Shown piece after piece: positions 4,578-63,800 of a DNA stretch of 64,000 bases. A program made the translations under genes and the position numbers. The stretch lies in the NCBI GenBank assembly GCA_905178155.1, contig CAJINV010000004.1, positions 6,720,842 to 6,784,841 of the forward strand. Direction: 5' to 3'. The notes below the pieces were generated by a model, which saw nothing but the letters and a program-made list of their open reading frames with translations, ran no database searches and was not told the origin of the DNA. Position 1 is the first letter of the stretch. Each line of letters starts with the position of its first letter. This DNA is from Amoebophrya sp. A120. Its lineage: Eukaryota; Protista; Dinoflagellata.

Positions 4578-7500
4578 ATGCCGCCGAAAGGTGGCGGCGC
4601 CGCCGAGCTGGAGGCGAATTCCACCTTTGAGGCCCGCGCGCCGGACGAGGTCCCCGCCCCCGAGGAAGTTGCCGCCTTCGAGCCGGCGACCAGGAGCCTG
4701 GCGCCGCGGCTGTACCCGGAATTTGATGCGGAAGCGATCGATCAAGTCAACTGGGGCTTCAATTTTGTCGAGTCGTACTACCCCGACGTGAATGTGGTGG
4801 ACAAAATCAACGTGAAGCAGAGCCCGGGTTCTTTCTTCGATGCCGACTTTCCGGTGTGGTCAAATGGAGTATGAGAGTGCACAAGTCCCCCTCCTCCTCT
4901 TTTGTATGGCATGAACGGCAATACAAGCATCAGCAAGAGTGCCGGTTTTGCATGACAAATTTGCGCTGGAGTGTAGTGCTATTTGGGCTGCCCGAACTTG
5001 TCATGCAAACAGTGCCAAGAGCCAAGGCGCAAATTAGGCATTTTGCATGACAAATGAGGGGGAGGGGGGGTTGTGCACTGTCAAATGGTGGCGCGGAGAA
5101 AATCGACAAGGGGGTAGCCGTATCCTGTGCAAAAGTATCGTACTCGTCTTGCAATCATGCATTACAAATCTTTCTCTTAAGGTAAATCAGCATTACAAAT
5201 TTTATCTCTCATGCTGAGGAAATTTGTAATGCATTTATACGATTACCTTTTGCAATGCATAAGCCGAGCGAACCACGGCCTGGCGCCGGGTCACGCACGT
5301 GAAGACTGCGGGACATACCTTGGAGCCACCTGGTATGGCGTTCTCAAACGTTACATTCTCAACTGTTACATGAATTTGTCATGCAAAAGAACCTTGTTAA
5401 GCCGGCAGATCCAGATGATCGAGCTGCTTCGCATGACAAATTTCGGGAGGGCTAGACAGCATCTAAATCTGCGCCAAACTTGTAATGCAAAAGGCGCAAT
5501 CTTCTTCCTTCCAATTTTGCCAGTCTTGCATTACAAATTCATGTTGTAAGAGTTGACGTTGAGAATGTAACATTTGAGAATGCCATACCTGGAGGTGCTG
5601 GAGGCGAGGAGGAAGGTGCGGGCGGAGATGCAGCCCCGGCCCCGCTGGTGCGATCTAGTTATTCATACATCTTCGTGATTTTCATTTTTATTGTCATGCA
5701 AGGTTCTAGTTCATTTTCATATTCTTTCATCCTCATACATAGTCATGTTCAAGAACGCGCACCAGCAATAGCAAAGAAAAGGACGCAGGAACAGGAAGTG
5801 GTCCTCACTACTACTCATTGCGTTCAATAAGATTCATGTGCTCCTTATTTGGATGAAATAAAAATGCAGGCCAGCGAGGGGAAAAGCACGCAAGATCAGT
5901 ATGACGAGTGGCTGGCCCCGCGAGGCGAGTCTTACTCGAAGTCCTGCATGGTTGCGTTTCTGGAGAACTGCAAACAGTCCGATATGTACAAGGAGCTGGG
6001 CGTCCCTGTGCCAAAGCCGCCGGCAGACGGTATTCATTGTACTCCGTTTATTGCGGTTTCGTGCTCTGTTCGCTGGAGAAAGAGTTGTAGAAAATGCAGT
6101 TGTACGGAGAAGTCGTCCGTTGCGACGTGCTGAATTTCAATTTTTTTCTGATGCAATTATTCGCTCCGAAACCAAAATCTCGCGACGCAAAATAAACAAT
6201 CGCTCCGTCAAAAAATATCCAGGCGACGAAGCGGAGCCGCAGCCAAAATACCTGCGCATGCCCGCCTGCATGTACGTGCAGCCCACGCAAGACGTGGGTT
6301 GCGCCCAGGCTATGGCGTCCGCTTTCGGGGTAATAGAGGAGAACTGCGCGGATAAGCTGCCGAACGGATCCTACCTCTGGGAACTGATCTACCCCCAGGC
6401 CGAGGTCAGTTTCAAGACGTTAGACCCACCAGCGCCACCCGCTGGGGAGGAGGAAGCGGCGGAGGTATGATTGAATCTTTAATCTTTTGTTTTGGTGCTG
6501 ATTGATGTGGTCCTCACGACCTAGTACCAGTACGCATCTGATTTCGGGTTGTTCGCTATTTGCATGCAGCAGCTGCACAAACGAAGAGGAAGATGATGCG
6601 GTAGTTAATACATCGAATTATGGTGTTGAAGTCCACAAGCACAACTGAGTTCATCTTCAACTTACTATCCAAATCAATTCTAAATTTCCGTCTCTCGAGG
6701 TTCCTCCCCCGCCGCCCCCTGGGAAATTGAAGCTCCCCATCATCAACCCCAGCGGGAAATACGTGGTGAAGCTCTTCATCATGGGTAAATGGCGGGCCGT
6801 CGTGGTGGACGACACCGTGCCCTGCGAGAGCCTCGACGACGGACAGACCTTCACTTCGCTGCTGCCAAACGCGTGCACGAACTCCATCCTGGCGCGCATC
6901 CAGCAGAACATGAGCAAAAAGCGCCGGCCGGCGAAGGTGGACCCCACTAAGGACTTGGACAAAAACGCCAGTCTTTGGTGCCAGATTCTGGGGAAGGCGA
7001 TCTTGAAGGTAAGTACGAATTCAGCTGTTCACGAATGAGGTTGAGGATTAGCTTCTGATGTGCAACTACAAGAAGAAAGCTCGTCAGCAGTTGCTTGTGA
7101 TTAACAGTGTTGATAGTTGTTCGCTGAATTCTTGCAAAAGGAGCATTGAATGCCAAGTGCAGGAGGGAGCATTCGGTAAACAAAGGACCTTGCTCTGCAA
7201 GGAGCGTACTCTCGCACGGCACGAGCTTCCTTTCACCACAGGTTTCCCGAGACTTCGACTTCGTACCCTTGCTCCACCTTTTAACCGGGTACATTCCGGT
7301 CGTGGAGCCCCTTACCTGGGCCTATGGATTGCAAAAGTGTCTGGGTCTGGAAGAATGCAACTTGTGATGCTGCATTTGGATTCCAAAAAAATCTGTATTG
7401 CATGAGCAGCAAAAGGAGTATAATTTCTGCTTCTACAAGGATAGGGCATTCGCATTTGTCATGCGGAATAGGCATCAAGATGCCTTCAAAAAATCTGTGA

Positions 7501-10500
7501 TGCTAGGGCGTGCATCACAGACATCATGGCTCATGCAAAACGTGCTTCACAACTCTCATAGTCTTCCAGACCCAGACATATTTGCAGTGCATAGGGCCCG
7601 GCTTTCCACGAAGATCGAGGACAAGAGCGAAATGCTGCACTTCATGCTGAAGCCGGAAAATAGTGAGCCCATGCAGCCAAGGAGCAGCTTCGTGGGCACA
7701 GGAGCAAATAATGCCGCGCAAACAGATAATTGTGAAGAGCCGAAGGAGAAGATTATTCCGCATTTGTTCGGCACGATTTGCGAAATCAACGAGAACAAGG
7801 ACGAGAAGGGGACATTGCTGCACAGGCAAGTGCGCGTGAAAATCGCGGGTGGGCTGAAGCTATGCATTGCAAAAGTACAACCGTATAACTAGCAGGCATC
7901 GCTCAACAATTATTTTCAAGAAGAAGAGAGTGTGACGTGTATTGCTTTTTGGGTTTGGCAACGATGTTTGTCAGGCCCAGGCGACGTGATGTGCAATTTA
8001 TACGAGCACTTTTGCAGGGGATAGAAGCCGGACTGGGCCATGGAGAGCAAAATGTTAAGGCACGTGAAATATCAAATGCAAATGTGTCTTGGTCTGGAAA
8101 GTTGTGATGCTAATGTCCGAATACTTATACGCAACCTGTGTTAGCAGGGGGGCGCGCATGAGAAGTTTCTGAGCGGCTTTAATGTCTAGCGTGCGCCGGC
8201 GCATGACAAAGAAATCGCCTTCTTGGATGACCACAAACAAGTGGCGCTGTAGCGCAACAAGCATGACAGACTTTTCTGTCTGGTTGGCCATCAAGGAGCA
8301 TGACAAACTTGCAACATTCTTCCAGGCCCGGAGATGATATTTGCAATGCATATGAAAATGGAGATGCCAGAATCGAGCGACAGTGAGGAGGACGCGGACG
8401 ATGACGATGGGAAAGATTCCGCGAGGCTGTCAGCGTCCGACCCGGGTGGCTTAACCGTAACGGCGGAGGAAATCGCGGAAAGAGAAAAGAAGAGGGAAGC
8501 GTATTATAATAGTTTTGGTGGTGGTGGGTTTTGTACTTAAATAACGTTATTAAGCAATACTCAATTTCTATTTCGTATTCGTCTTTGTCTTGCATGGAGT
8601 ACAACTCGTCGACTTCGATTTAGCATGACATGATCTCTGTGAAAGAATCTACGCGTCTTCCAACTACAGAGCGCGCAAGGCCCGCGAGGAGGCACGCATC
8701 GAACTTCGGCGCAAGTTGGAAGAGGGTGACAGTTTGACGCGGAATATCCTGAGTGAAAACGTCCCCACACCATAGTCAAGATGGGGAATCGGCTAGACAA
8801 ATCCACAAGCTTTGGCTCTTTTGCATGACAAATTTGGATTCGTAGTGTAGTGCTGTTTGAGCTAGCTCAGCAGCATCACAGATCTAGCATACCATGCTGA
8901 TTGGAGCATGACAAATTGCAAAGCACGATTATAAAATGCTTCTCATGGGGCTCCGCATGAGAAACATTTTCAGCATGCAGATTTGCATTACAACTATGGG
9001 GTGAGGACGTTTTTAAATAGGATACGGAATATCGACGGCGGCTACTGGATATGAAGTGCAAATATGTCTGGGTCTCCTTGAAGTAGAGTTTGGGCTTGTC
9101 ATGCACATTTTGCATGACCCGTCAGGTTTGTGATTCTGGTGCTAGCGTCACAGATTCTTTCAGAACGTCTTGATGCTAATTACGCATGACAAATGCCCTC
9201 TCCGCGACGTGCCAAGAGCTGACTCCTCTTGCTGCTCATACAGCACAGATATTTTTAGACTCCGCAGACAGCATTACAAGTCTCACACATTTGCAGTTGA
9301 TACTGGATCAACTGGACGGACGTGGTGGACCTGGCCACCCACTTCTCCTTTTACGAGTCCGCGGACAAATTCACCTGTGTGGAGCACTATGGATTGCAAG
9401 AGTGATCGTACTTGTACTAAAGATTGCAGTCATGCATTACAAATGTTCGCATTAAGGGAAATCCGCATTACAAATTCGATTTATCATGCAGAAGAAATTG
9501 AAATTTGTCATGCGCTAGCGATTTCTACTAGTTTAAGTTATTTTACTAGTACGAGTCTCTTGCAATGCATAAGCACGACTCGGTCCCGGTGGAAGACGCG
9601 GAGAGTTCGAAAGTCATGCTGTATCAAAAGGAAAAGACCCCCCTTCCCATATCAGAACGAAATTTCTGATGCTGGATTTGCGTACATAAATCAGCCTCGT
9701 CTTGCAGTAGAAGAGGACTGCAGGCCCATATCGAGCCTGACTGGAGAGGTTTTGTGACATAGGCGCCCAGCATGACAAAAGTCCATGCTGTAGGCCTAAC
9801 AGCATCACAAACCGCTGGCACAATGCGGGGGGCCTTCTCGGATTGCCTTCTTGCAAGACAGAAACGATTTGTGAGTACAAATCAGCATCACAAAAGATAT
9901 CTTTTCAGTAAGGGGAGGTGGGATTATTTTTCCTCGCGATATGCTGCCCACAAAGCCCATGCTCCTCACCGTCCGCGTCCGGCCGAGCAAAGGTGGACCA
10001 GGACAAACAGCGAGTGCAACAACTTCGCCCACTATCATTTGTAAAAACGTCCCCACCCCAGAGTCAAGATGGGGATTTTGCAACACATTTCTCGAGGTTT
10101 TGGGAGCCACGCATGACAAGTTGCAGGCTGTAGTGTATTGCAGTTTAGTAAGGGAAGCCGCATAACAAATCCATCTCCTCATCCTGTTTACAGCATTACA
10201 AGTTCCAAAATACAATGGGAAATGCCTCTTGTGAGGATGCGCATTACAAATGCTCTTGTGCTTGCAGATCTGCATGATAACTCTGGGGTGGGGATGCCTT
10301 TACACAGGAGACCCACCGATACTTCCTCATCCTCGGAAAAAATCACCGACTCCACGCTGCTGCTCTGGTCTGCCACGCAGCCCGACGGCACGCCTGAGGA
10401 GGGGGAAGAAGGACTACCCGACGAAGGAGCTAGTCCGGCGGACCCCGCGGAAACGGCGGCGCCAACCAAGGCGTCGTCGAAATCGTCGGGAAAAAAAGAA

Positions 10501-13500
10501 AAAGACGCAGCCGCGGGGTCTGGTACAACAACTTCCCAACAGGAACAACAGGGCGGGTCGACAAGTAGCACGGCCATTCCGACCTGCCAAGTCGTGCTCG
10601 CGGTGGAGCCGATGGACCCATCAGTACATGCGGGGAGCTACTTTTTCCGCGCGAACAACTGGAAGTTCAACAGCTACCCGAACACTACGAGCACAGGGTC
10701 CTCGGGTGGAAAAATATCAAACCCGTTCACGACCGGTTTCCAGAAGCTCGCAAATCACCTTTGTTACGCGAAGAAGGCCGCGGCTGGGAGTGCTGGTGCA
10801 GCAGAGAGCGATCCGGACGCGCCGGACCCGTTCTGCTACTTCGACTACAACCCGCTGGCGCTGTCTGCCACCTGCACACACGTGACGGGTCCGAACGCGC
10901 CAAGGGTGCAGGGGTGTTTCGACGTGCCGGTGGTCGCAAACGGGTCGGAGCTATGCTTCGCAAATATGTCTGGGTCTGCAAGAATGCAGGTTTCGTTTGT
11001 CATGCTTGTCTGGCATGACTCTTAGATCTGTGATGCATGAGCAGGACAAGGCCCTCTTGCCTGTCATGCAAAAACGCAGTTTGCCATGCAGTAAACGAAA
11101 CACATAAAAAACCGCTCAAAAAATTGTCATGCTTGGCGGCATATCGCAGTGCGCCCACCATTCACAGATTTGCATCACAACTTTCCGGACCCAGAACGAC
11201 TTGCATTTGATATGAGCACTGCTTCTTGCTGATCGAGGATCCGACAAAATCGGGAGCGAAACACCAGGTGTTGCTGAAAAAGTGCAGCGTGCCTAGTTCT
11301 GTATCAGGAGCCGAAACTACGACGCTGATGAACTACGAAGCCAGGGCGACATTCGTCGAGCCCGCGGACTACCTGGAGCAACGAGCACACATCCCGGTTC
11401 TGAAGATCGGAAGAGCACCGGACTGCGAAGACCCCCCGGTCACCTACCCAGCCGGGTACAGCCTGTGGGCGAAGTGCGAATTTAAATCCCGCCTCCCCGA
11501 CACGTATCCTGTGCAAAAGTATCGTACTCGTATAAATGCAGGTCGTTCATGACAGATCTGCTTTTTTAGCTTGTTCTGCATGACAAATTTCATTTTTCCT
11601 CTAGAAAAAATTTGTCATGCGTTTTGTACTAGTGCGATGCTTTTGTGATGCATAACACGGCGAAACGCACCGTGACCGCCTACACGCACTTCGCCGGCGA
11701 CCCGGAGTGCCGCCAGCACCTCCGGCTGCGGCTGTTGGTGCGGCGAAGAGCAGTTTCCGGAGAGCAACTTGTTTTCCCGGTTTGGTCAGAAATCGTGTTT
11801 GAAACGCCGTTCCTGCCCTTGTTTCAGTTCGACTTACCGGAGGGGGAGGACACGTTTTTGCTTTTGTTGGAGGGAAACATGTCGAAACCCGTTATCGAAC
11901 CGGTGTACTACGTGCACTTGTTTGAGCAACTCACCGAACCAACACCCGCGATCGCGCTGGAACCCTTCAGCGAGAGTTACGACGCGAAAAAAATCGGGTT
12001 TTCCAACAGAAAGTTGTACGAAGTGGCTTTGTCGGACCTGAAAACCTTCGATCCGTTGATTCTCCGGGAACGAATCACGGTGGCAGCCGAGCCGGTTTCG
12101 GAAGAGGAGCCAGCGGTGGTCTCCGCGTCCATGCGGGTAACCTGCAACTTTCCCGACGTTTTTTTTATCGCGAAATTGGTGTTGCAGCACCCGCCAAAGG
12201 AGGAGTTTCGGCCGGCGATGAAGGACAGATGGCAGTCGGGGGAGGAAGTTACGGAGGAAGAGGAATTGCCGGCGCTGGAATCGAATGTTAACGTAGATCC
12301 GGAGGAATTCGGCGGGAGGAAAAATTGGCTGTCCAGTCTGGAAACCATGTGCACGATGGAGGGCAAGGACGCGGTTTCTTTTATCCTGATTGAAAACGTC
12401 CCCACACCAGAGTCAAGACGGGAAATCTGCTAGACAAATCACACAGCTTTGGTTGTTTGGCATGATAAGTTTGTCCTCGTAGTGTGGTCCTGTTTAGCTC
12501 GCTCAGAATCATCACAGATCTAGCATAGCATGCCGATCCTCGCATCACAAATCCCAAAACACGCAAAACGAAATGCTTCTCATAGGGCTCCGCATGAGAA
12601 ACTTTTTTGGCATGCAGAATTGCACGACAACTCTGGGGTGGGAACGTTTTTACTCAGGATATCCTTCCCGCACCTGGAGCTCCAGGGCAACGCGACCTAC
12701 ATCCTGCAGATCGAACTAGACAGCAGCCGGTGCGTGGAGAGAACGGAGGTGCCGGTGAACAATGCGGAAATAGTCGCCTCTGAGGCGAATGGAGAGGAGC
12801 CAGCGGAAGAGGAGGAAGGAGCAGCTGAGAAGCCAGAGCCGTACAAATGGCGGTTAGAAATATTCGCCGACGGAGATCTGCAGGTCGGAAACGACACCAC
12901 TGAGTTTGACTTGGAAGCGATTGTCATGAAGAAATGGGCGAAACTGGCGGGCGTCCCCGCGGCGGAAAGGGAAGAAAAGGCGGAGGTAGCGAGGAAAGAA
13001 TGGCTCGAAGGAGGGGATCAAGGGTATATTATGAAAACCGTATAACGTTTCTTGTAGGTGTGGCTCCTGAATTATCATCGGTTGTAACAGACGGCAAGCA
13101 TCTTCCTGTATCGTGATGGTGCTTTTTGCAAAGTCTAAATCAAGATCAACTTTTTGAGTTGGCCGGGTCCACCTGAAGCTCATGCTCAATGTGTGAAACA
13201 AAAAGATGTGAAAATAGAGTAGGCGTGAGCCTGCGGGCCTAAATTCCGGTGGGTTGGTCGGTTGGTTGGTTGGTTTTGGACAGACGACATTTGAGCGAAT
13301 TTCCGATGTATGGAAACACGGCTTCGGGGTTCGGGCGCAGGATGGGCCTGCAGCTGCAGGCAGTTGTCCGTAACTTCCTCCGGTGGGTTGGTCGGTTATG
13401 TACAACGCAGAACCAAGTTAATCTCCGCTGCGCGCAGCACAAATCTGTGCTGCGCACAAATCTGTGCTGCGTGTTGCGCGCAAATCTGTGTTGCGCGCAG

Positions 13501-16500
13501 CTCGCCGGAGACACAAATCTGTGCTGCGTGGACGCAAATCTGTGTTGCGCGCAGCGCAAATCAGTGTTGCGCGCAGCTCGCCGCAGACACAAATCTGTGC
13601 TGCGTCGACGCAATCGGAGCTCCGGGGGGCCTCGTGAGGATTTGCGCGAGATAGAAAGAGGTCGGGGCTCCAGTGCTGCACTTTTCTCCAGCCAAGACCT
13701 GCGCTTCCTCAACCCAAGCAAAACACACTTGGGAAATAGAGACAAACTCGCGCAAAATTTGGATCAGCCCCCGCTTGGTCATGCCGGGCGGGCGGGGGCT
13801 TTTTGCGCAACCCCTTGGCTGCGCGAGCCCCTTGCTTGCAAACCCCTCGATAATAAATTGGGCCCCTGAGCATGCAGCTGCTCTCCCGCCCGGCTTCTCT
13901 TGAAGGCAGCCAAAGAATGAAAGTTCCACTTCTTGCCTGCCTTCAACATGTTTTCCCGAATCGGTTGTATGATTTCGGGGCTCCAGGCAGAAATCCGGGC
14001 CGCTGGCTAACAAATATTGGGTCGGGCGATTAATCTGCGCTGAATGATCAAGAAACCCAAACAAAGCCCACACACCTGCAAAGCCTAATCAGGAAGCCAG
14101 CCTCGCGCCGGTTGGGGCTTTTTAGAAGGGTCAAAAATATCTATCGCCCCACCCGCCCACCAGGCTGGTGGGTGGGTAGGTCGGTAGGCGTGGCCAAGGG
14201 GCAGCGCACGCTCGTGCCACCCACCCACCAGCGAGGTGGGTGGGTAGGTCGGTGGGCGTGGCCAATAGGCAGCGCGCGCTCCCTCGCCGCACCCACCCAC
14301 CAGGCTGGTGGGTGGGTAGGTCGGTAAGCGTGGCCAAGAGGCAGCGCGCGCTCCCTCGCCCCACCCGCCCACCAGGCTGGTGGGTGGAAAGGTCGGTAGG
14401 CGTGGCCAATAGGCGGCGCGCGCTCGTCTCAGACCCCCACCTGCCTGGTGGGTGGGCCGGTCGCTCGGCAGGCGTGGCCAATAGGCAGCGGAGGCTTGCT
14501 CCACCCACCCACCAGGCAGGTGGGCGGGTAGGTCGGTAGGCGTGGCCAAGAGGCAACGCACGCTCACCCCACCCACCCACCAGCGAGGTGGGTGGGTAGG
14601 TCGGTAGGCGTGGTCAATAGGCAGCGCACGCTCGCCCCACCCGCCCACTAGGCCCGTGGGTGGGTAGGTCGGTAGGCGTGGCCAAGGGACAGCGCACGCT
14701 CGCCCCGCCCACCCACCAGCGAGGTGGGTGGGTAGGTCGGTGGGCGTGGCCAATAGGCAGCGCACGCTCGCCGCACCCACCCACCAGGCTGGTGGGTGGG
14801 TAGGTCGGTGGGCGTGGCCAATAGGCAGCGCGCGCTCCCTCGCCCCACCCATCCACCAGGCTGGTGGGCCGGTAGGTCGGTAGGCGTGGCCAATAAGCAG
14901 CGCGCGCTCCCTCGCCCCACCTACCCACCAGGTGGGTGGGTAGGTCGGTAGGCGTGACCAGTAGGCAGCCGGCTCTGGGTGGAAAGGCACGCATAGGTAG
15001 GTAGGTGGGCCGGTGCGATCATGGTATTGCAATGAATCGAAAAGACGCCTGGTAGGTGGGTAGGTAGGCAGCTGCGGCAGTAATAGTGGATGAATCTCAG
15101 AAAAACACAAAACACAATGTAGCGGGTTCGGTGGGTCAAATGTCGTCTGTCCAAAACCAACCAACCAACCGACCAACCCACCGGAATTTAGGCCCGCAGG
15201 CCCACGCCTATTGTGAAAATATGACAAACAGGGAATACGAAGCCGTGTTTATGTGCAACATCGACACGGCCGAATCTACGGAAGCAGAAGATCCGCCAAA
15301 AACCAACGCGCAGAAAATCGAGGAAAAATACACACACTCCCTATCCAAGGATGGGCACATGAACCCGCACATGTTGATATCAAATGTAAAAATGTCTGGG
15401 TCTGGAAGGTTGGAGCTTGTGATGCTAATTCTGGATGATGCAAAAATCTGTGTTGCATGAATGCCAAAAGTTGCCCACTAAGTTGAGAGGAAGTTTCTCA
15501 TGCAGGATAGGCATGATAGCGATAGGGATCCCGCAGAATCTGTCATGCTAGGTCCTGCACTCCAGATGACATGGATCATGGAAAATCTGCATGACAAGTG
15601 TCAGAATCTTCCAGACCCAGATATTTTTACAATCCATAGCTGAAATTTCTCTACGACACGCTAGAGAAAGAGCCCCTGATATCCTGAGTAAAAACGTACC
15701 CACACCATAGTCAAGATGGGAAATCGGCTAGACAAATCCACAAGTTTTGGCTGTTTTGCATGACAAATTTGGATTCGTAGTGTAGTGCTGTTTGAGCTAG
15801 CTTAGCAGCATCACAGATCTAGCATACCATGCTGATTGGAGCATGACAAATTGCAAAACACGACTAGAAAATGCTTCTCATGGGGCTCCGCATGAGAAAC
15901 ATTTTCAGCATGCAGATTTGCATTACAACTCTGGTGTGGGTACGTTTTTACTCAGGATACCTGATCGAGGTGGACACGGGCATGGGGCCGAAATTTGTGG
16001 ATTTATCCAAGGAGGAAGTGGGCACGTCCGAGGCAACCACCCAGAAATGGGAAGGCTATAAGGAGGAGTGTTCGAAGTCCATTGAAATGAACAAGGAAAA
16101 CTTTACGAAGGTCGTGGAATGGTATAAAGTTTTTGAAGATGTTCATGTGGATGCTTCATCGATTTGGGCTTGGTTGGCGCAGCAGTACCCGTAGCGGATG
16201 CAGAATCAGTTGAATATTATCAGTTGTTACTTTCGCATATGAGAATGAGGGTGCTAAATGTTGTTTCACGAAAACAGAACGGCTGCTCGTCTTTTGCAGC
16301 GCAATGGCAATTATAAAGAACCAAGTATTATAAAGAACCAAGTAAAAGAAAAAGAAAATAAATGCCTCCTGTGTCTAGGTATGCCGCGTTACCATACGGC
16401 GAGACGGCACTGACAGAGACGCGCGAAGCGCTAGTCGCCTACACGAACACGCGATGGGAGAAGCGGGATGCGTTGAGTGAAACTTTATTGAAGGAGGAGT

Positions 16501-18272: not shown

Positions 18273-21083
18273 ATGGCGGAGAAGATTTCAAAGCGATCGG
18301 CCGACAGCGCCGCTGGCGCCGAGGGCGTCACGAAGAAAAAGAAGAAGCAGAAGACGGAAGCGAAGGAGGCAGTCGCGGTTGAGGAGCCAAAGGTTGCTGA
18401 AAGTGAACAAACCGCACCTGCCTCTACTACCGAGAAGAAGAAAAAGAAAAAGAAGAATAAAGACAGCAGCCCAGCTGGTACCGAGGAAACTAGCACCACC
18501 GCAACAGCCGCTGGCTCCCCAACTACGGAGGAGGAAGTAGTCGCTGCTGTTGAAGAGCCGGTCGTTGCAGAGAAAAAAAAGAAGAAAAAGAAGAGCAAAG
18601 ACACGACAGGAGATGTTGATGTTGTTGAAACGGCGGAAAATAAGAAAACTGCAACAGCAGAAGTTGTAGTTCCAGCAGCAGCTTCAAAAAGTAGCCAAGC
18701 AGACCACTCTTCCCACCCCTTTTACGCGGAGCACAACATTACCGTGACTGGTTGCCCCGCCCCGAAGCCCGCCGTGAAATTTTGCGAGTCCGGTCTTCCG
18801 AAAGAGGTTGCGAATCTCTGCGAGCAGAAATTCGGGAAGGACGGCAAGCCCAGCCCGATTCAGGCGGTGGCGTGGCCGCTGATCATGGAGAAGAAGGACG
18901 TTTTCGGAATCGCGAAGACCGGTTCGGGAAAGTCCCTCGCGTTTGTGTTGCCGTATCTTGCGAAGCGGCTGCAGGAACACAAACTAGCGGTCCAGAACGG
19001 GGAAGAGAAGAAGAAGCAGAAGAAGCACCACTACCCCTCCATGGTCTGTCTCGCGCCGACCAAGGAATTGGTCCAGCAAATCGCCGAAGTGGCGGAGGAA
19101 TTCACGAAGCAACTGGATTTACAGCTCACCGTCCACTGCATTATCGGTGGCGTGCCGAAATACGAACAGGTGAATAAAATTAAGAAATCCGCGTGCGATT
19201 TGGTCATCGCCACCCCCGGGAGACTCCTCGATTTGGTCGAGAACGACCAGGTTTTGAACCTATCCAAATGCGAATACTTGGTGTTGGACGAGGCCGACCG
19301 CATGTTGGACGTATCCTGAGGAAAAACGTCCCCACACCAGAGTTGTCATACAAATGTGCAATGACAGGAACATTTGTAATGCGCAGCTCCATGAGAGGAA
19401 TTTCCAATCTTGTTTTGCAATTTGTAATGCTTTAAACAGGATGTGAAAATGGCTTTCTCATGCGGCTTCTCTTGCCAATCAGCACTACACGGCAGAGGGA
19501 AATTTGTGATGCACAGCTCCCAAAACCTGGAGACTTGTGTTGCTAGATTCCCAACGCCATCTTGACTATGGGGTGGGGACGTTTTTGCTTAGGATAGGAC
19601 GACGGGTTTATCCTATCCATCCGAAAAATCGCGGACTACTGCACAAACGAAGACAAACAAAAGCACCGGCAAACGGTGCTCTTCTCCGCCACCTGGCCGA
19701 TGGAGGTGAACAAGCTCGCGCGGGGCTTACTCCCCAGCAGCGAGAAGCGCGACGAAGCGGTCACGATCACGATTTTGCGGAAGGGGCAAACGATCGACGA
19801 CCCGGATAACATCAACACGGAGGATAAATTATGCATTGCAAAAGTATCGTACTAGTATGAATCGCATCACAAATTTTGCCAAGAACAAATCTGCAATTTG
19901 TCATGCTCGGCAAGGTAGCAAGTTAGATTTGTAATGCATGACAGCAATTACTACGAGTGCGATACTTTTGCACAGGATACAAATTGCAGCTAAACGACGC
20001 GATCAAGCAAAAGTTCCACATACTACCGGACGGACGGCAGAAATACGGGTTGTTGACGAAGACACTGAAGGAGAACAAGGACAAAAAAATTTTGATCTTT
20101 GGCTTGTACAAGAAGGAAGTCGCGAATTTGGAAAACTGGTTGAGGCAAGAGGGCCACAAAATCGTCGCATTGCAGGGCGACATGCTGCAGGACAAGCGGA
20201 CGAAAGCGATTGAGGATTTCAAAAAGAGTACTAGAATTGGGTTTTCTTGGTGGTTTTTGTCATGTACTGCGGATGTAGGTGGACCTACTTTGTTAAGATC
20301 CAAAGTTTTCGTGATGTACACAACAGCATGAGAAATTCTATTCATTTTTATCTATAAACACAAAAACCGTTATCTATGACAAGACTGTCACATAAATTGT
20401 GCTCGAGTGTACGTCCACTCACAACAGGATGAGATAACGACAGAGACTAATGTCAAGGACAAACACACAGATGATGATGATGATGATGATGATGATGACA
20501 CAAAAACCGAATTATGAAACCAAACAGACGTCTGCCGCCTTCTCGTCGCCACGGACGTCGCGGCGCGCGGCTTGGACATTAAGGACATTGACATGGTAAT
20601 CAACTACACTTTCCCCCTCACCTGCGAAGACTTCGTGCACCGCTGCGGGCGAACCGGACGGGCGGGCAGGACCGGACAGGCAATTACGTTTTTCAACACA
20701 ACGGGGGAGCACAAAGAACGGGAGCACTGTATTGCTATTGATTTTGGCGTTTTTTTTGGCTGAAAAATTTACGAAATCCAAATCGGCTTGCCACAAGCGT
20801 GTTCTGATGCGGCGCAAACATCAATAATGATGAAATGCAATAGGAGGTTAGTAAGTATTCTCATTTTGAATAATTGCAAAACACAGGCTTCGACATCATC
20901 CGCCTGTTGGAAGGCGCGAAGCAGCCGGTGCCGGATGAATTGAAGAAACTGAACGCCAACACTTTCACAGCGACGAAGAAAAAATCGCACGGTATGTACG
21001 GAGATTTTTTCAAATCAGCCGAGGAAATGGAAAAGTTGAGCAAGAAAAAGGTCCAGATGAGCTTTGACTCCGACTCGGACTAG
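18273..21083 (+). CDS. DBP3: ATP-dependent DEAD-box RNA helicase DBP3 (2 introners, 2 GT-AG introns)
   Basis: Lys-rich N-terminus; [44 protein letters not shown] and [10 protein letters not shown] motifs; DBP3-type C-terminus [13 protein letters not shown]. Confidence 0.88.
19312..19596. mobile_element. Introner family C (opposite orientation to 8745)
   Basis: TATCCTGAGGAAAAACGTCCCCAC...GTGGGGACGTTTTTGCTTAGGATA; TSD GGACG; removal restores [11 protein letters not shown]. Confidence 0.95.
19830..19979. mobile_element. Introner family A
   Basis: TATGCATTGCAAAAGTATCG...CGATACTTTTGCACAGGATA; TSD TAAAT/CAAAT. Confidence 0.9.
20471..20497. repeat. (GAT)n microsatellite in a DBP3 intron
   Basis: About 9 GAT units. 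Confidence 0.9.
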
Positions 21084-46200: not shown

Positions 46201-46805
46201 GGAGAGGAGCGTGGCACGAAGTTCCAGCACGTTCCGTCCGTCGTTTACGGTTTTGCCAACGCCGCGGGCACGGGGGGCAAGACAGCCGTGATCTACTGGG
46301 AGTTGCATAGAGCGCCGCTGAAGGAGCACCTGAACTCGGATCCGCGGCAGCGACTATTCTTCGCGGAAGCCCAGCCGTTGGTGCTTACCCGGGACCAAGC
46401 GCGGGCCCAGTGGGAAAATACATTTTTTGATTTAACGAAGTGGGCGATGGAGTACGAGCCTGAATTAGCGGCACGGACGGAAATATGCATCGCAAATATG
46501 TATATGTCGGCGTCGGGAAGGATGCAAACTTGTCATGCTGATTTTGGAACACCAACAGCAACGAAGAAATAAAAATCTGTCTTGCAGATGGTCGGCAAGT
46601 AGAGGTTCGCAGTTTTTGTTTCTCGGAAAACGCAGGCTGCGCATGAGGGAACCTCCGGAGGACCTACTATGCTCTTCCTCTTCGGGCATTCCAGACCTTC
46701 TGGCTAATCCGAAAACGGCATGACAGATATTTGCATTCTGCCAGACTAGACAGATTTGCAATGCATACGGAAAAAACCCCACGGGGGGATCAAAATCGGT
46801 CGTGA
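43250..46805 (+). CDS. Hypothetical multi-exon protein
   Basis: Coding-like exons ~43250-43888, ~44034-44718, ~45440-45881 and ~46150-46483 separated by probable GT-AG introns; no recognisable domain; start and end uncertain. Confidence 0.55.
46484..46767. mobile_element. Introner, family D-related, with 6-bp duplication
   Basis: TATGCATCGCAAAT...ATTTGCAATGCATA; CGGAAA on both sides. Confidence 0.85.
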
Positions 46806-56800: not shown

Positions 56801-59800
56801 GGTGCAAAGAAGTGTTGTCAGAACGGAATCCCACAAACCGGAATTCGAAGACGAACACCACGTGATGCATTTACACGAGCCGAACACGGGGTTATCCGGG
56901 GATCTTGCGATCACGGGGTTCGGCGATTTGGAGGGGCACTTGATCCCGCACGAACCCGTGGCGTACAGGAGTTCTCGTGGATATCAAATGTAAAAATGTC
57001 TGGGTCTGGTAGATTCTGAGATTTGTCATGCATATTTCGGATCACGCAAGTCCAAGTGGCGTCTGATGCAGGCAAAAGCATCACAGGTTTTGAGCACGCC
57101 TCATGATGCCTGTCCCGCATGAGAAACTTCCTACTTGCGTGCCAAGAAATGGACAGCTTTTGGCGCTCATGCAACACAAATTTTTGTGTGTTCCAGAGTT
57201 TGCATCACAACAGTGAACCCTTCCAGACCCAGACATTTTTACATTTGATAGTGGACCAGCATCATCAATGCGGTCGAGCTCCTTAAAGCAGCTCGAGTTG
57301 GAACTTCTCCAAGGTCGTGCTGCTGGCAATGAAGATTTTTCCTCGAACATCAAGTCATACAAGCAAAATAGATACTTGGAAGAAGGGGATGCGGGTCCCG
57401 CAACTACTTCCGATTTAGAGGTCGAGGAGGATTCGCGGTCAGATTCCGAGCGAGCGCAGGAATTGCAGGAGCTTTTGCAAAGTTCAGAGGACGCGGAGGA
57501 ACGAGCATCTTCGTCGAGAAGCGACTTCGCGGCGGCTTCCGGGGGGTTTGTTCAACAGGAGGGCAATGATTTCAACCGTTTTGAAGTAGATGAGGAAGAC
57601 ATCGAAACGGAGCTGACCCCCTTCGCTGGAGTGGTAGAGAAAACCACAGAGCATTCCATCCACAACCCACTTAGCCGCGCAGCGGCTTCGGCGCACCCGG
57701 AACAGAAGAGCAAAACTTTTCCACCAGAGCAAAGGAAGTCCATGAAAGCGGATGAGCACTTACCCCAGTCCGCTGTTTTCTCCACGGCCCACGGAGTCAT
57801 CGACGAAGATTTATCGAACTACGCAAAGCCGCACCCGTTTGCCGATAGAAGCCCAGTTCTTGTTAGTGCCGGTGGATCTTCAAATTTCGCGGTAAAGGAA
57901 CTTGATACAGAAGTAGAAGGTTTGGCGGAAAACGAACCTCGAGTCGAAGAGGATGAGGACTTCTACTTTGACGACGGCACCAACCAAGACTACTACCGTG
58001 CGGGCCAGTCGACGATCTACGATCAGCTGCGCGCGAGCCAGAACCGCCACCCCTCGGCGAAAGTGCAGAAGGGGATGTCCATTCGGGTTTCCAGCAACAA
58101 ACCAGACGATAAAAATTACAGTGATTGGCTCACGATGTACGAACAAGACGGCGTGACGGAGCAAATACATTTTCACACAAAAACACAACTAATCCTCGCG
58201 GAAGACTATGACAAGTTCTCTACCCAGAAGCAGAAGTTTGAAGCCGTGGGGAACAGTACCATTTACGACAATCTGCGCGCGAGCTCCTCTCCCCACCCGG
58301 AACGGAGAACAATGAAAACACGGAGTAGCTCCTCCTCCGCGATGAAGGTCGATAGCATGAAAGGGGTGCCACTAGAAGTACCTGCCGCCCCAGGGTCATC
58401 TTTCGGCGGATCTTCGAGTGCTGACAGAATGACCCGCGCGAGTGCGGCAGAACATCAGAATAACGTCTACTTCCACACGGACGAGCATGTTTTGCTGATG
58501 CCCGAGATCGATGAGGTGTCAGCGCAAAACCTGAATTTACATTTCACGAAACAGCAGAAACTCCTGACGGTCAGCAAGCAGACGAAAGAGGAATTTCTTA
58601 TCGCGAAACGGGAAGAGGAACTGCTAGCGAACATCCGGAAGGAAAAGTACAAAAATCCTTTGTTTCCGCGCTTCGTCACGGGGGACACGTTGACTCCGCG
58701 CACGTTGATGCAACAAGCGACGGCACGGAAGTTGAAACAAAGAACTTTTATCTACGACGTGGAGGAAGAATTAGATCAAGCGGAGAGGAAGGCGGAGGAC
58801 GCAACCAAGGACAAGGTCGGTCTTACACAATCGGAACAACTCGCAAAGCAGGAGCAGGAGAAGAGGGAGTTACTGTGGGGAATGAATGCAAATGGAACTA
58901 CAGCAGGAGATCATATCAACGACGGACAGCTGGCACTGCAGGTGAATCCCGAGGAGGCTGCCAGCAAGTCCAAGCGCGACAAGGGATTGAAAAGTAGGTC
59001 CAGGTCGCCAGGAACTTCTTCTCCAATGGGTATTAAAAAGCCCGCTTCGCTGCTGAATCCTAGGAGGTCTAAATCAAACCCAGCATCTTCGAGAGCAGGA
59101 GCTTTGATCGCTGCGCCAGCAGGTGGCTTCAGGTTTAACTTTCCGGAAGCTGCAACTACGGCTACACAGCTGCCGCCGCCTGAAGCAGGACCAGGGACCG
59201 CACCAGTTGCAGGCGTTGTTCCCTCACCTGTGCTAGCTGGTCCACCCGGGGCGTTCCATTTAGCACTCCTGAACACGACCATACTGCCACCGAAGCATCA
59301 AAGCGCGGCGCTGCAACAAAGTCGAAGCCGGAGCCGCAGTCCGGAGGGTTTCACTAGTAGTGCAGCAGTTCCTAACAACTTCATCCCGCTCATACAAGTA
59401 GACCCGCTGCCCCCCTTGCAGCAATTCGACGAGCGGTTTCTTCTCAACGCAGCGAAGCAACTCCCCGTTTCTCAGCGGTTCGGCGAGGTCAACGGACACG
59501 TGGGGGCGAAGCTGACGGAGTTGCACGGCCACGATGTGGGAACGTACTACAACTATGGTGCAGGAGCTACCAACACAAACTCAAATAGCAACTTCGACGC
59601 GACCACAAGTAAAAATCCAGAGGACAATAATATCATGGGTTTTGACACGCCGAGGACGATTATCAAAAAGGCGTTTACCACGCAACCAGACTTGGCAGCG
59701 ACGATATACAAGCAAACGGTGGAGGAGATTCTCACCGCCTCCGCCAGCTCTATGGGAGATGTTGTACTGGACAGCAACGCATACGCGTTGTACCAAGGGG

Positions 59801-60255
59801 GTGCTGCACAAGTAGGGGATGGGATTTCACCGCGAGGAGAACAATTTGTGCCGGCACAGTTTTATTCCGCTCCTACGTCCTCCTCCCCTTCGGCCGAACT
59901 GATCGCGTCACAAAGGTTTCTGGCGGCGCTATCACCGGCTGGAACTACGTCTGGGGGCCCACCGGCAGGATCACTACAACCACAGCAGCAGGGGACTAGT
60001 AGTGCCGGCACAGGCACTACGGGTACTACGTCTTTTCAAACCAGCGCACCTCCGAAGGGCAATTTGCTGCTCTCCAGGACGGGGCCACAAGCAAATCCGT
60101 TCGCGCACATCTGGGCTCAGTATAATGGAGGTGAAGAATCAGAAATGTCGGAGAGCGAGGTAGAATTACCCCCGGAGGATGATGAAATATTGAAGCCGCT
60201 GACAAGGCCGCCGGTGGAACTTCCGTTGCCCAATTTACTGCGATTCAATTTCTAA
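53841..60255 (+). CDS. ~2046-aa low-complexity hypothetical protein; two long ORFs joined across one introner
   Basis: ORFs 53841-56993 and 57268-60255 join in frame (SSRG-PASSMRSS) after removing 56982-57255; a shared internal repeat occurs on both sides of the join. Confidence 0.8.
56982..57250. mobile_element. Introner family D
   Basis: Perfect 28-bp TIR TATCAAATGTAAAAATGTCTGGGTCTGG; TSD GTGGA. Confidence 0.95.
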
Positions 60256-60896
60256 ACTGAACCACATGATAAACATCAAGAACCTATGACTTTGTACACT
60301 ATCGCTATAATCTTGTTCCCATGTCACTGTCAGTTCGAGCGCATCAGCACTTGGAGTCCTCGCGTATCTATGTCCTCTACGGGAGATGACGAGCCTCCTC
60401 ATCCGACTTTCAGAACATAAAGTCCGTCGTCTGTATTGGCTTTGGGAGGAAAGACAGGTCCGGCGTTCGATCTTGCTCGTGATGTGTTCCTTCGTCTCCC
60501 GTCGCAGTCGTCACTTAAAACCAAATTAGAATCGTGGGCTTTCGCGACATTGTCGTCTGTCGTATTTCAGAAGGTCGTGATGAAGTAGTTTTCTACTAGA
60601 ACATGAACATGAACAGCTCGAAAGCTACAGCTTTAAGACCATTCATCGTAGTATTCGCCACGAGCATCTTCAACATGCTCGGTGTTTCGTCCTTGAGTTA
60701 GTGTTGATCGGGTTTAACCGCAGCTACTTTTGCTTTTTGATTAGTGTATGACGAGACGCATCGGCATCCAACTTTCCGTCCGACCTCTACCTCTAGCGCT
60801 GTTCCTTTCATAGGAATTGAAGTCGAATTAAGAAAAACAAACATATTCAATCAATCTCTGCGTGTGTGTGTGAAAGAAAAAACAAGCCGACATAAA

Positions 60897-63800
60897 ATGG
60901 CGGGACTACAAGCCGACAAGGAAAACTTCAAGATGCTGATGACCGCTGCTTCAGGTTACACTGGTGTCGGCGGGACCAGTTCAGCAGACGAAGGCACCAC
61001 GGCGACTTCAGTACAGCGGAAGACGAGCAAAGAGGCGCAGATGAATGCTCTCTCTGTCTCTGCGCGAGGGAGGACGGCGCAGCAAGGAGGTGAAGCTGCA
61101 CCGGCGCTCAGCACCGGCAATATTTCTAATAGCAGTCGTGCCGAAGTAGACGGAAAAGTGTTAGCCGGAGCATCATCATCAACTGCGAAAGCCCCCGTTG
61201 CCGTGATCGAGGAGGAAGACCCGGAGATGAATCCAGAAGTGACCTCTAGTAGCGACAGTACCGGAAGCAGGAGCAGGACCGCAGGCGCTGCAGTCTCGAA
61301 GATGTCTTCAACAGCGGCGAGGACAGCGACAGCACCACCAGGAGCGATGAACAAAACTGTAGCAAATGTTGACCCGTATGTGGGGTACAGGGTGAAGAGC
61401 AAGCTGACCCTGTTTTTCCTGACTGGCGTGTACGTCTTCTATGGGGTGGTGATGGGAACCTACGTCCCCTTCCTTGTGCCGCTCGAAGCGATGCGTATGG
61501 CTTCCACCTGGCAGAGCGAGTACGTCATTCTGGAAAAAACGTTGTACGGGCTGACCCACGCCATCGCCCCGGTCGTCGGGGCTTTGTCGGACGAAACCTT
61601 CCACAGCTGGGGCAAGCGGCGGCCCTGGTTGGCGGGCGGGTCGCTGTTGGTTGTCTGCGCGTTGACGATCATGTACTTGGCGTCCTCCCAACTGTTTCTC
61701 GGGTTCTACCTGTTCGGCCTGGCGGGCGTCATGGTCGGGAAAAACCTGGTCGTTTCCTGCACGGTCAGCTTCCTCGCGGACGTCGTCCCGTCGAAGCTCA
61801 CCGCGGTGGCCAGCGGCTTCGCGATCTTGCAGTGCGCGGTGGGCTGTTTGATCGGGTTTCTGATCCAGTACTTCCTGGCCGAGAGCGCCGTGCAAAACAC
61901 CTACGTGTTGTTGCTCGCGGTCTTCGTTTTGATCTCCGTGCTTTTCTTCGCGTTCGCCCGAGAGCCACCCAGCGACTTGCACCAAGAACAACGCGGCGGA
62001 GTTTTGGCTGCTTCCGTAGGAGTTGGAGGTGGCAGAAATTTACTTCATCGCAGGGGAGATGAGCAAACGCCGGCGAATTCGAACATGAATTTGCATTCCG
62101 ATCAGAATTACGGCACTATCGACATAAACGACGGGGTAGAAGTAGATGGCGCGGCCACAACCTCCACCGCCGGCGACCCCCAGAGGAACGAGTTGGCAAC
62201 TAAAGATAGATCGGAAGTGGAGAGGCAGAAGCAATCAGAGGCGCTGAAGAAAAACTGGTTCCATGTGCTCTACCACGCGCTGACCGTTTCCTTCGACTAT
62301 CACCTGCTGTTTTGGGTCCGCATTTTCTTCTACTCCTCCTGTGCAATTTTCCCCTTCGCGCTGTTCTACATGCGCGACGCCCTGCTAATTCCCGACAAGG
62401 CGGACGCGATTCGTGTGCTGTCCACGGTGTCGATCCTGGGGCAGGCCTCCCTCGCAGTGTTCGCCGCTTTCGCCGGGCGAATCGTTTCGAAAGCGAAGGA
62501 GCAGTGGTATCTGATGATGACGGGAATCGTCGTTATGGCTGTCATAGGCACTGCAAAAGGATTTTCAATCGGGTTTGTTATCGTACCATATCACAAGTCC
62601 AACCAAGAAGTTTTGCATACTTTTGAAATGATGAAACTGATACGCAAATCTTCATCTTTTTTCATGAAGAAAACAAGCCACATGCACATCATGTGCATAG
62701 CCATAGAAGTCCTGCAAGCATAAAGTTAAGGAAGGTTATGGCCCTCTCCCTCTCGAGGTCGGCGCAAGAGATTTGCTACTCTGACATGCCTGCAACTGTG
62801 TGTTCTACTTTGGCTTTTGTACAAATGCGAGGATCCTTATTTGCACCGCATACGACGTTTACGGCGGGTTGGTGGCGTTGCCCTTTTTCGACAACTACAA
62901 CGTCCCGGGAGGGGGCGCGGTTCATCCCGTAGAAGCGGAGTACTATGCGCACAAGACAAGTACGACAACCACTGCCGCCGATGGAACGACGGAAACCGGT
63001 CCTGGTGCAGGAGCGTCGACGTCGGAAAATAACAGTACTTCTGCTAAACAGCAGCTTCCCTGGGTCGCCATCCATATCTTCTACGTGATTGCCCTGCTGT
63101 ACGGTGCGGCCCAAGCCATGTTTTCCATTGGCGACATGGCGTTGGCGCTCAAGCTGGTGTATGCATCGCAAAGGCATCGTACTAGTATGAATTGCATCAC
63201 AAATTTTGGCAAGAAGAAAAATTGAATTTGTGATGCTGTTTCACCTTAGGAAGGAGATTTGTCATGCATACTTGCAATTAGTACGAGGGAGTGCGATACT
63301 TTTGCACAGGATATGGTGCCGGCAAACGTGGGGAACGGCACGGCCATGGGAATCTTCACCCCGAGTCCGACGTACGGTTTCGTCGTGGGATCGGTCTTCC
63401 TTGGCGTCTTGCTCCGGTTCTTCCAACTGCCGGCGAATGTTTCAGGTGGAGCTAGGTTGTTGAACAAGGATCTACTTCACAGTAGTTCGTCCGGCAGTAC
63501 TTCTACTAGCTCGACTGCATCTTCAACGAGCACCAGTGCGTCAGGTAGTAGTAGTTCTACTTCAGGAACAAGCAATTTGCTGGAGCTCGCGCAGTTCGCC
63601 GGGCAAATGCCGAGTGGGGCAGGAGGAGGTCCTCATGGGGCGGCCGGAGGAATCGCGGATTTTAACGGGGTAAAGTGGACGCCCGAGTTTTCCGTCCTCG
63701 GGCACCAGGCGCTCGCGCTGACCAGCTTCACGTTTGTCGCCTTCGCCTGGATTCTGCTGAGCAAAGTCGACACCGACCGGGCGCTGCTGTTGACGGAAAA

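What the first reader, a model, noticed from the sequence alone, without database searches (positions are those of the whole stretch)
4870..63313. 41 TAT...ATA transposon-like introns that cannot be removed precisely by GT-AG splicing
Seen: 41 elements of 141-327 bp in at least 5 TIR families (A 13, B 5, C 8, D 8, E 3, other 4), each flanked by a 5-bp duplication (6 bp in one). They split conserved motifs such as [11 protein letters not shown] in DBP3, and removing the element plus one duplicate restores the frame. Sliding the junction through every position of each duplication gave no GT-AG pair in any of the 41. Known: IR/DR-bounded non-canonical introners were reported in Amoebophrya (Farhat et al. 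2021) and DNA-transposon introners in algae (Huff et al. 2016); to my knowledge the removal mechanism and the mobiliser remain unresolved. Inference: a dedicated removal system recognises TIR plus direct repeat, at the RNA level or possibly the DNA level as for ciliate IESs.
Basis: partly seen in the sequence, partly recalled or inferred. Interest (0 to 1): 0.85.

Follow-up and report, generated by a model that had tools for sequence, protein, structure and literature searches.

The report
Hairpin-measured transposon introns of Amoebophrya
These 41 transposon-like inserts in the genes of a marine parasite are an already published intron class that is cut cleanly out of the RNA without normal splice signals, and where the flanking duplication is imperfect the upstream copy is kept, which suggests the cut is likely measured from the insert's fold-back ends rather than set by the duplication.

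Summary
All 41 elements are real (141-327 bp, five multi-copy families plus four others). They match the published introner elements of Amoebophrya A120 (Farhat 2021), and a window protein is 100% identical to a public A120 model.

RNA contigs from one sample drop exactly element + 5 nt at 21 of the 25 elements laid; two more are consistent and two were not displayed. Removal without GT-AG is therefore confirmed, though 0 of 41 GT-AG pairs is not a depletion (chance 0.21).

Not found in my literature searches:
- The upstream duplicate is kept at 3 of 3 mismatched sites seen in RNA.
- A matching duplicate looks dispensable (46484; 5 of 5 sites in a related strain, by reading frame).
- The first T is never mutated at the 5' end (0 vs 10 of 232).

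The enzyme remains inferred (U1-less spliceosome about 55%). A Ginger-like mobiliser is already proposed. The scan noted similar introns in other genomes, but not this family.

The parts
4870..5085 (+). Element, ~220-bp family; ends AAA; repeat mismatched at position 4
   Evidence: RNA joint skips 221, upstream copy kept
5121..5261 (+). Element, ~150-bp family
   Evidence: RNA joint skips 146
5334..5587 (+). Element, single copy in window
   Evidence: E+5 by contig-length arithmetic
7323..7593 (+). Element, ~265-bp family
   Evidence: RNA joint skips 276
7861..8023 (+). Element, ~150-bp family (divergent)
   Evidence: RNA joint skips 168
8070..8352 (+). Element, ~265-bp family
   Evidence: RNA joint skips 288
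8745..9024 (+). Element, ~280-bp family
   Evidence: One RNA row with 9050: 552 skipped, 9 letters between, net 543 = 285+258
9050..9302 (+). Element, ~265-bp family
   Evidence: Same row
9388..9571 (+). Element, ~150-bp family (divergent)
   Evidence: RNA joint skips 189
9622..9941 (+). Element, ~320-bp family
   Evidence: RNA joint skips 325
10033..10311 (+). Element, ~280-bp family; ends AGA
   Evidence: RNA joint skips 284
10952..11212 (+). Element, ~265-bp family; repeat mismatched at position 1
   Evidence: RNA joint skips 266, upstream copy kept
11505..11654 (+). Element, ~150-bp family
   Evidence: RNA joint skips 155
12382..12661 (+). Element, ~280-bp family; repeat mismatched at position 3
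   Evidence: RNA joint skips 285, upstream copy kept
15378..15638 (+). Element, ~265-bp family; repeat mismatched at position 2
   Evidence: Sequence and frame; laid but row not displayed
15680..15959 (+). Element, ~280-bp family, 22/22 inverted repeat
   Evidence: Sequence and frame; RNA row not displayed
19312..19596 (+). Element, ~280-bp family, just after the DEAD motif of the helicase gene
   Evidence: Contig-length sum with 19830 and two GT-AG introns closes exactly; Pfam DEAD
19830..19979 (+). Element, ~150-bp family; repeat mismatched at position 1
   Evidence: Same sum
22448..22667 (+). Element, ~220-bp family; ends ATG
   Evidence: Sum 380 with 23025
23025..23174 (+). Element, ~150-bp family
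   Evidence: Same sum
23625..23930 (+). Element, single copy in window
   Evidence: Sum 683 with 24090 and 24618
24090..24300 (+). Element, ~210 bp
   Evidence: Same sum
24618..24768 (+). Element, ~150-bp family
   Evidence: Same sum
25553..25835 (+). Element, ~280-bp family
   Evidence: RNA contig piece stops at the repeat; length consistent but not closed
25919..26074 (+). Element, ~150-bp family
   Evidence: Consistent with contig tail only
33078..33233 (+). Element, ~150-bp family, in MFS paralogue 1
36655..36876 (+). Element, ~220-bp family
36939..37092 (+). Element, ~150-bp family
37787..37940 (+). Element, ~150-bp family
38003..38220 (+). Element, ~220-bp family
38355..38510 (+). Element, ~150-bp family
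38617..38824 (+). Element, ~210 bp
38981..39307 (+). Element, ~320-bp family
39893..40171 (+). Element, ~280-bp family
40282..40563 (+). Element, ~280-bp family; ends ATT
40648..40863 (+). Element, ~220-bp family
41238..41555 (+). Element, ~320-bp family
46484..46767 (+). Element with an apparent 6-bp repeat, which is a 5-bp register with 2 mismatches
   Evidence: Public model P0001 removes E+5 and keeps the upstream copy; E+6 stops after 10 codons
51071..51339 (+). Element, ~265-bp family, in ArfGAP gene
56982..57250 (+). Element, ~265-bp family, 22/22 inverted repeat
63160..63313 (+). Element, ~150-bp family, in MFS paralogue 3

Best explanation
The 41 inserts are the published Amoebophrya A120 introner elements: non-coding TAT...ATA inverted-repeat elements, likely spread by a Ginger-like integrase that duplicates 5 bp, and removed from the RNA as element plus 5 nt with the upstream duplicate kept, likely by a U1-less spliceosome that would measure its cuts from the terminal hairpin. 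Shown: exact removal, the kept copy at 3 RNA sites, and the invariant 5' T. Inferred: the 5' cut is likely one base before TAT (the alternative is at TAT), giving a relaxed donor N-T-A-T that resembles the organism's own GTAT donors, with the invariant T as intron position +2. The 3' cut would lie 4 nt past ATA, set by distance rather than by AG or by a matching repeat. Because the signal is the inverted repeat itself, the elements work in either orientation and at almost any coding site. The catalytic machinery is untested.
For: Removal: 12 joint rows covering 13 elements skip exactly E+5 in all four runs of one sample; the same contigs skip GT-AG introns. 8 more close by contig-length sums. 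Kept copy: upstream at repeat positions 1, 3 and 4 in 3 of 3 displayed mismatched sites, and in the public model at 46484. Distance rule: in related-strain loci the frame needs E+5 (mod 3) at 96 of 97 exact, 16 of 16 one-mismatch, and 5 of 5 perfect-ended sites with >=2 mismatches. Polarity: first T mutated 0 of 232 at the 5' end against 10 of 232 at the 3' end, p=0.002. Both orientations occur within families. In predicted folds at least 13 of the first 20 bases pair with the 3' end in 39 of 41. Register: at a position-5 mismatch (L006:306) the A120 orthologue carries the downstream-copy residue. 6 of 10 RNA-supported canonical introns start GTAT. Phase 94:55:42 puts 49% in phase 0 under this register. 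Literature: A120 keeps U2/U4/U5/U6 and 83 of 89 spliceosomal proteins but no U1 was detected (PMC7789003), while a relative with canonical introns has U1 (PMC12005148). Family 38 is labelled Ginger with 5-bp TSD and TA/TA termini (PMC12130899 supplement).
Against: No G preference at the putative +1 (63 vs 60 expected) and no clear AG preference at the putative 3' end (20 vs 15.3). The shared internal 9-nt motif is strand-symmetric (253 vs 239), so no branch signal stands out. The donor would be buried in a helix. The T asymmetry is 1 of 30 positions tested (about 0.05 after correction). The register rests on one orthologue site; a second site was uninformative. Repeat mismatches are synonymous more often than a free intronic copy predicts (15 of 25 loci, 5 of 5 window; expected 0.36-0.47), hinting that both copies are sometimes used. 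RNA evidence is assembled contigs of one sample, which hide minor junctions. No transposase was found in 8 open frames tested, and I could not compare these families with family 38 by sequence.
Confidence: 0.55

Rival explanations
1. Same RNA-level, hairpin-measured cuts, but made by a non-spliceosomal endonuclease plus ligase (or a second, dedicated machine), releasing a full-length circle as reported for euglenid nonconventional introns.
For: No dinucleotide rule at either end. The geometry resembles the Euglena code of fixed spacers, 3 nt at 5' and 5-6 nt at 3' around a paired stem (PMC12501133). Euglenid introns leave as circles, not lariats (review PMC11282704).
Against: The invariant 5' T and the NTAT likeness to local GTAT donors. 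Co-occurrence with U1 loss points to a remodelled spliceosome. The Euglena CDG/CHG motif is absent from these ends.
Confidence: 0.3
2. The elements are excised from DNA in a stage-specific way, like ciliate IESs, so transcripts come from element-free templates.
For: TA-bounded ends and precise loss of element plus one repeat. No DNA from the intracellular stage was tested.
Against: The kept copy and the invariant T follow transcription direction. DNA contigs run from exon into element at 14 edges at depth 33-42, and no exon-exon joint is among the 15 rows shown. This last point is weak: only 4 of 14 edges have 31 or more letters on both sides, 329 rows were not shown, contigs drop rare forms, and that run may be the assembly's own sample.
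Confidence: 0.05
3. The joints arise by copy-choice across the hairpin at the direct repeat: reverse-transcriptase template switching in the library, or RNA polymerase jumping.
For: Hairpin plus short direct repeat is the setting where template-switch artefacts are expected (recalled; listing only). The excess of synonymous mismatches fits some use of both copies.
Against: Retained elements break conserved genes such as the DEAD helicase. At 4870 only 1 matching base lies at the joint although a 9-nt repeat sits just upstream. The frame is kept where the repeat has 2-3 mismatches.
Confidence: 0.06
4. The mobilising integrase itself reverses its strand-transfer step on the folded transcript or on DNA.
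For: The 5-nt stagger equals the target duplication.
Against: By established DDE chemistry (my knowledge) the strand-transfer bond on the sense strand is ATA to repeat position 1, so reversal would keep the downstream copy. The upstream copy is kept.
Confidence: 0.03

Closest known systems
Introner elements / non-canonical introns of Amoebophrya sp. A120 (Farhat et al. 2021, PMC7789003)
   Same: Same organism and class: inverted repeats starting TAT, then 7 variable bases, then >=3 A (32 of 41 here); 3-5-nt direct repeats; mean NCI length 240 nt; RNA-supported; about 29,850 repeated introns.
   Different: [quoted passage not shown] Here mismatched repeats fix the polarity, a matching repeat looks dispensable, and one 5' base is invariant.
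A120 introner families of Gozashti et al. 2025 (PMC12130899), family 38 'Ginger; 5-bp TSD, TA/TA termini'
   Same: 5-bp duplication, TA...TA ends, and TIR families of about 150-320 bp with mostly non-canonical ends.
   Different: Family 38 is about 810 bp with Copia/Gypsy-like open frames, and the main text says it lacks Ginger termini and TSDs. The window's elements are short and non-coding; no sequence link was tested.
Euglena nonconventional introns (code N3CDG...CHGN5-6|R, PMC12501133)
   Same: No GT-AG, ends paired by an inverted repeat, fixed spacing with a longer 3' spacer, frequent direct repeats, coexistence with GT-AG introns.
   Different: Unrelated lineage and motif. No clear purine rule at the exon start after codon control here. 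The circles reported there are untested here.
Fritillaria borealis non-canonical introns (PMC13326754, PMC11282704)
   Same: MITE-derived, TIR/TSD-bearing introns removed by a remodelled major spliceosome.
   Different: Fritillaria has dominant end dinucleotides (AG-AC, AG-AT), keeps U1 and duplicated U2AF. Here no end dinucleotide dominates and U1 was not found.
DNA-transposon introners of Aureococcus and Micromonas (Huff et al. 2016; recalled and as cited in PMC7789003 and PMC9860276)
   Same: TIR plus TSD, with precise restoration of the mRNA.
   Different: Those carry or co-opt canonical GT/GC-AG sites; these do not.
Ciliate internal eliminated sequences (recalled)
   Same: TA-like ends, precise removal from coding DNA.
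   Different: IESs leave the somatic DNA. Here the asymmetries follow transcription and the DNA contigs seen hold the elements.

Membership tests
Amoebophrya A120 introner elements | Inverted repeats starting TAT + 7 nt + run of A | tested here: met
   41 of 41 start TAT; 32 of 41 fit TAT-N7-AAA
Amoebophrya A120 introner elements | 3-5-nt direct repeat at the exon/intron border | tested here: met
   35 exact, 5 with one mismatch, 1 with two
Amoebophrya A120 introner elements | Absent from RNA without GT-AG | tested here: met
   21 of 25 laid elements show exact E+5
Amoebophrya A120 introner elements | Organism is A120 | tested here: met
   Window exon 100% identical over 112 aa to P0001, named Amoebophrya sp. 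A120 by its source
Non-autonomous TIR DNA transposon (MITE) | Repeated families, TIR, constant site-specific duplication, empty sites, no coding capacity | tested here: met
   Families; 275 of 351 related-strain copies have exact 5-bp repeats after end refinement; empty sites in paralogues found for 3 of 13 MFS elements
Ginger / integrase-type DNA transposon | Autonomous partner with integrase and the same ends | tested here: inconclusive
   No Pfam hit in 8 open frames from long repeats; no whole genome held; candidate only from the literature
U2-type spliceosomal intron | GT/GC...AG ends | tested here: not met
   0 of 41 at any register for GT-AG or GC-AG
U2-type spliceosomal intron | Branch point and lariat; snRNP dependence | not testable with these tools
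   No raw RNA reads of this strain mapped
U12-type intron | AT-AC ends and minor snRNAs | tested here: not met
   AT-AC possible in 2 of 41; minor snRNAs reported absent
Euglena nonconventional intron | N3CDG...CHGN5-6|R code | tested here: not met
   End base counts show TAT(C/G)...(C/G)ATA with different spacing
Euglena nonconventional intron | Excised as a full-length circle | not testable with these tools
   Only contigs available
Ciliate-type IES | Element-free somatic DNA | tested here: inconclusive
   One DNA run holds the elements, with weak power; strand asymmetry argues against

The most novel reading that the evidence does not exclude
Amoebophrya splices tens of thousands of introns by a structural code alone: a hairpin, one invariant U at the 5' side and a fixed distance to the 3' cut, with no GU-AG, no U1 and no need for the direct repeat. 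This is done by a U1-independent remodelled spliceosome or by a new enzyme, convergent with but distinct from the Euglena system, and it lets a transposon insert anywhere in coding DNA in either orientation at little cost.
Probability: 0.5. Interest if true: 0.8.

Novelty: already known. Interest (0 to 1): 0.5.

Why it matters
The elements are published, so the finding as a class is not new. How they are removed is an open question since 2021, and the border was declared unknown. The mismatched-duplication approach used here fixes the polarity of the cut, suggests that a matching repeat is unnecessary and singles out one base. That turns the question into specific predictions that existing raw RNA-seq can test genome-wide, and that lariat-versus-circle sequencing can decide. 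A splicing route with no end dinucleotides and no U1 would extend the known limits of pre-mRNA splicing and explain how a transposon family could colonise coding DNA on this scale.

Tried and rejected
No whole genome is held, so no genome-wide search for a transposase or snRNAs was possible.

A family end pattern found 0 matches in viral contigs. No listed sequencing run is on record as RNA; X3-X6 are taken as RNA because they skip GT-AG introns. Raw RNA runs X9 and X10 laid only 4 and 21 partial reads, on element sequence, and gave no junctions. The DNA run swamped the joint table, so the mismatched sites 15378 and 19830 were not displayed.

My first end-pairing mis-set 4 of 41 window ends and was replaced (39 of 41 exact). 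Of 351 related-strain elements, 206 had a confident coding strand, and 191 of these with at most one mismatch entered the counts. 122 had both frames called independently. In that test 1 exact and 2 mis-ended rows did not fit E+5.

Rejected ideas: selection for G before TAT (63 vs 60 expected), AG at the 3' cut, and 4- or 6-bp duplications as a real class (they were end shifts). Apparent long elements: one was three adjacent short ones (L072). The 1.1-kb L021 element and window repeats gave no Pfam hit. Homologue searches for a second position-5 site gave nothing informative. Rfam found nothing in the window. Earlier scan notes held nothing for this genome or family.

Full report
OBSERVATION. 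A de novo scan for direct repeats flanking inverted repeats and a looser scan gave 41 elements of 141-327 bp between 4870 and 63313. 32 satisfy a strict definition, against a mean of 0.08 (maximum 1) in 100 third-order Markov simulations. All 41 lie in coding sequence, which is roughly 55% of the non-element window by my approximate gene models, and blastn found no further copy. All start TAT and 37 end ATA. 35 have an exact 5-bp repeat, five have one mismatch, and 46484 has two in the 5-bp register. Three of 13 elements in the three MFS paralogues gave an empty-site hit in another paralogue, as expected of target-site duplications. No register gives GT-AG or GC-AG; one allows GA-AG and two allow AT-AC. 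This is not a depletion: 3.7% of flanking 5-mers would allow GT-AG, so P(0 of 41) is 0.21.

IDENTITY. A window exon is 100% identical over 112 residues to P0001, which its source names Amoebophrya sp. A120. Farhat et al. 2021 (PMC7789003; I read sections 10, 11 and 16, passages, and supplement passages without figures) describe A120 inverted repeats starting TAT, seven variable bases and at least three A, 3-5-nt direct repeats, 29,850 repeated introns, no detectable U1, and borders that remain unknown. 32 of 41 elements fit that start. The class is therefore already known.

RNA EVIDENCE. No listed run is on record as RNA, but contigs of X3-X6 (one sample) skip GT-AG introns. On 15250-27100, contig lengths close exactly for seven more elements and are consistent for 25553 and 25919, while 15378 and 15680 were not displayed. 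So 21 of 25 laid elements show exact removal, and no displayed row shows retention or an alternative site, although 25 of 41 have a frame-keeping GT...AG within 15 nt. Raw RNA runs X9 and X10 did not cover the genes. DNA contigs of X1 run from exon into element at 14 edges at depth 33-42, but only 4 of these have 31 letters on both sides and 329 joint rows were hidden, so this is weak evidence against DNA excision.

WHERE THE CUT FALLS. Imperfect repeats mark the kept copy. At 10952 (position 1), 12382 (position 3) and 4870 (position 4) the upstream base is kept in all four runs. The 5' cut is therefore at TAT or one base before it, and the 3' cut 5 or 4 nt past the element. At 46484 the public model removes element + 5 and keeps the upstream copy across two mismatches; element + 6 would stop after 10 codons. 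A homopolymer error there is not excluded.

MORE COPIES. A pattern scan returned 160 loci, all from one assembly, with the same families at up to 98% identity. One locus exon is 92% identical to its A120 orthologue, so this is a related strain. I found 351 unique elements: 275 with exact repeats, 47 with one mismatch, 13 with two and 16 with more. With upstream and downstream frames called separately by a codon model trained on the window, element + 5 (mod 3) was needed at 96 of 97 exact, 16 of 16 one-mismatch and 7 of 9 worse sites. That includes 5 of 5 with perfect TAT/ATA ends and 2-3 mismatches. This is frame inference, not RNA, but it says a matching repeat is not required. Oriented by gene, the first T is changed in 0 of 232 5' ends and 10 of 232 3' ends (p=0.002). 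It is the only asymmetric position of 30, and the loci alone give 0 vs 8.

REGISTER. At L006:306 the copies differ at position 5, and the A120 orthologue has the residue encoded by the downstream copy. This modestly favours a cut one base before TAT. A second site was uninformative. Under this register the invariant T is intron position +2, the intron start NTAT resembles the GTAT start of 6 of 10 RNA-supported canonical introns, and 49% of introns are phase 0 (94:55:42). A target preference could also produce that phase bias.

MECHANISM. Shown: exact loss of element + 5 from RNA, upstream copy kept, 5'-specific invariant T, both orientations tolerated, ends predicted to pair. Inferred: a hairpin acts as a ruler, and a remodelled U1-less spliceosome cuts (55%). 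In support, A120 keeps U2/U4/U5/U6 and 83 of 89 proteins, and a relative with canonical introns has U1 (PMC12005148, passages). Against: no G at +1, no AG at the 3' end, and no one-stranded branch motif. The main rival is a non-spliceosomal cut-and-ligate route like the one proposed for Euglena (30%), whose code also uses a paired stem with fixed spacers (PMC12501133, parts 1 and 3 of 6) and whose introns leave as circles (PMC11282704, passages). Fritillaria shows that a major spliceosome can be remodelled for such introns (PMC13326754, abstract and section 30). DNA excision, template switching and integrase reversal are each at or below 6%, for the reasons given under rivals. One result does not fit neatly: mismatches are synonymous in 15 of 25 loci and 5 of 5 window cases, against 36-47% expected if one copy were free (p 0.01-0.15 for loci alone). 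Minor use of the other register is possible.

MOBILISER. Gozashti et al. 2025 (PMC12130899; passages, and 40 of the 58 A120 rows of supplementary file 8; files 13-14 not searched) describe an A120 family of about 810 bp with Copia/Gypsy-like frames, labelled Ginger with 5-bp TSD and TA/TA termini. This fits the ends here, but I could not compare sequences, and 8 open frames from long repeats gave no Pfam hit. Enrichment of introners in genes is general (PMC9860276, passages).

NOVELTY. The polarity, the dispensable repeat and the invariant T were not found in the papers returned by my searches. The library lacks most subscription papers, including Roy et al. 2023 and Huff et al. 2016 (not read), and the figures of the Farhat supplement were not visible, so prior report is not excluded. 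Earlier scan notes describe similar hairpin-bounded introns in other genomes but nothing for this genome or family.

VERDICT. A real and known class, with a new and testable removal rule and an unknown enzyme; interest 0.5.

Noticed in passing
window 3574-4304 and 26150-26880: Two copies (about 92% column identity) of a 731-bp element starting TAT but not ending ATA. The first has a 5-bp duplication; the second sits at the 3' end of the sushi-domain gene with an ambiguous duplication. Its length matches Gozashti family 26 (730 bp). The RNA contig of that gene ends at about 26151.
   Followed up: partly
window 13025-15231: 2.2-kb GT-AG intron, RNA-supported (loose end), holding a 2-kb element with long inverted ends, an apparent 9-10-bp flanking duplication and a 68-72-bp minisatellite; no Pfam hit in one frame tested.
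   Followed up: partly
window 30196-32051: Large intergenic palindrome: 505-nt arms at 87% plus inner 207-nt arms; no Pfam or Rfam hit.
   Followed up: partly
window 32176-35010, 36312-41600, 60897-63840: Three MFS paralogues carry 1, 11 and 1 elements; the 6.4-kb ORF at 53840-60257 carries one and the gene at 168-2870 none. Insertion or retention is strongly clumped by gene.
   Followed up: no
window 5691, 16622, 16892: The 9-nt motif found in 39 of 41 elements (104 copies) occurs only 4 times elsewhere, 3 of them inside GT-AG introns. Some canonical introns may be decayed, canonicalised elements.
   Followed up: partly
window and loci L001-L160: Repeat mismatches are synonymous more often than expected (20 of 30), and insertion phase is biased 94:55:42 without a clear base bias. 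Unexplained.
   Followed up: partly
L072:5329-5608; L006:2123-2341; L037:7386-7713: Elements with an 8-bp duplication, or a 5-bp duplication offset by 3 nt. These lengths keep the frame under a fixed 5-nt rule.
   Followed up: no
L021:505-1608: 1.1-kb TAT...ATA element of another family with an exact 5-bp duplication; three open frames gave no Pfam hit.
   Followed up: partly
window 9030-9049: A 20-nt exon between two elements is correctly joined in RNA.
   Followed up: no
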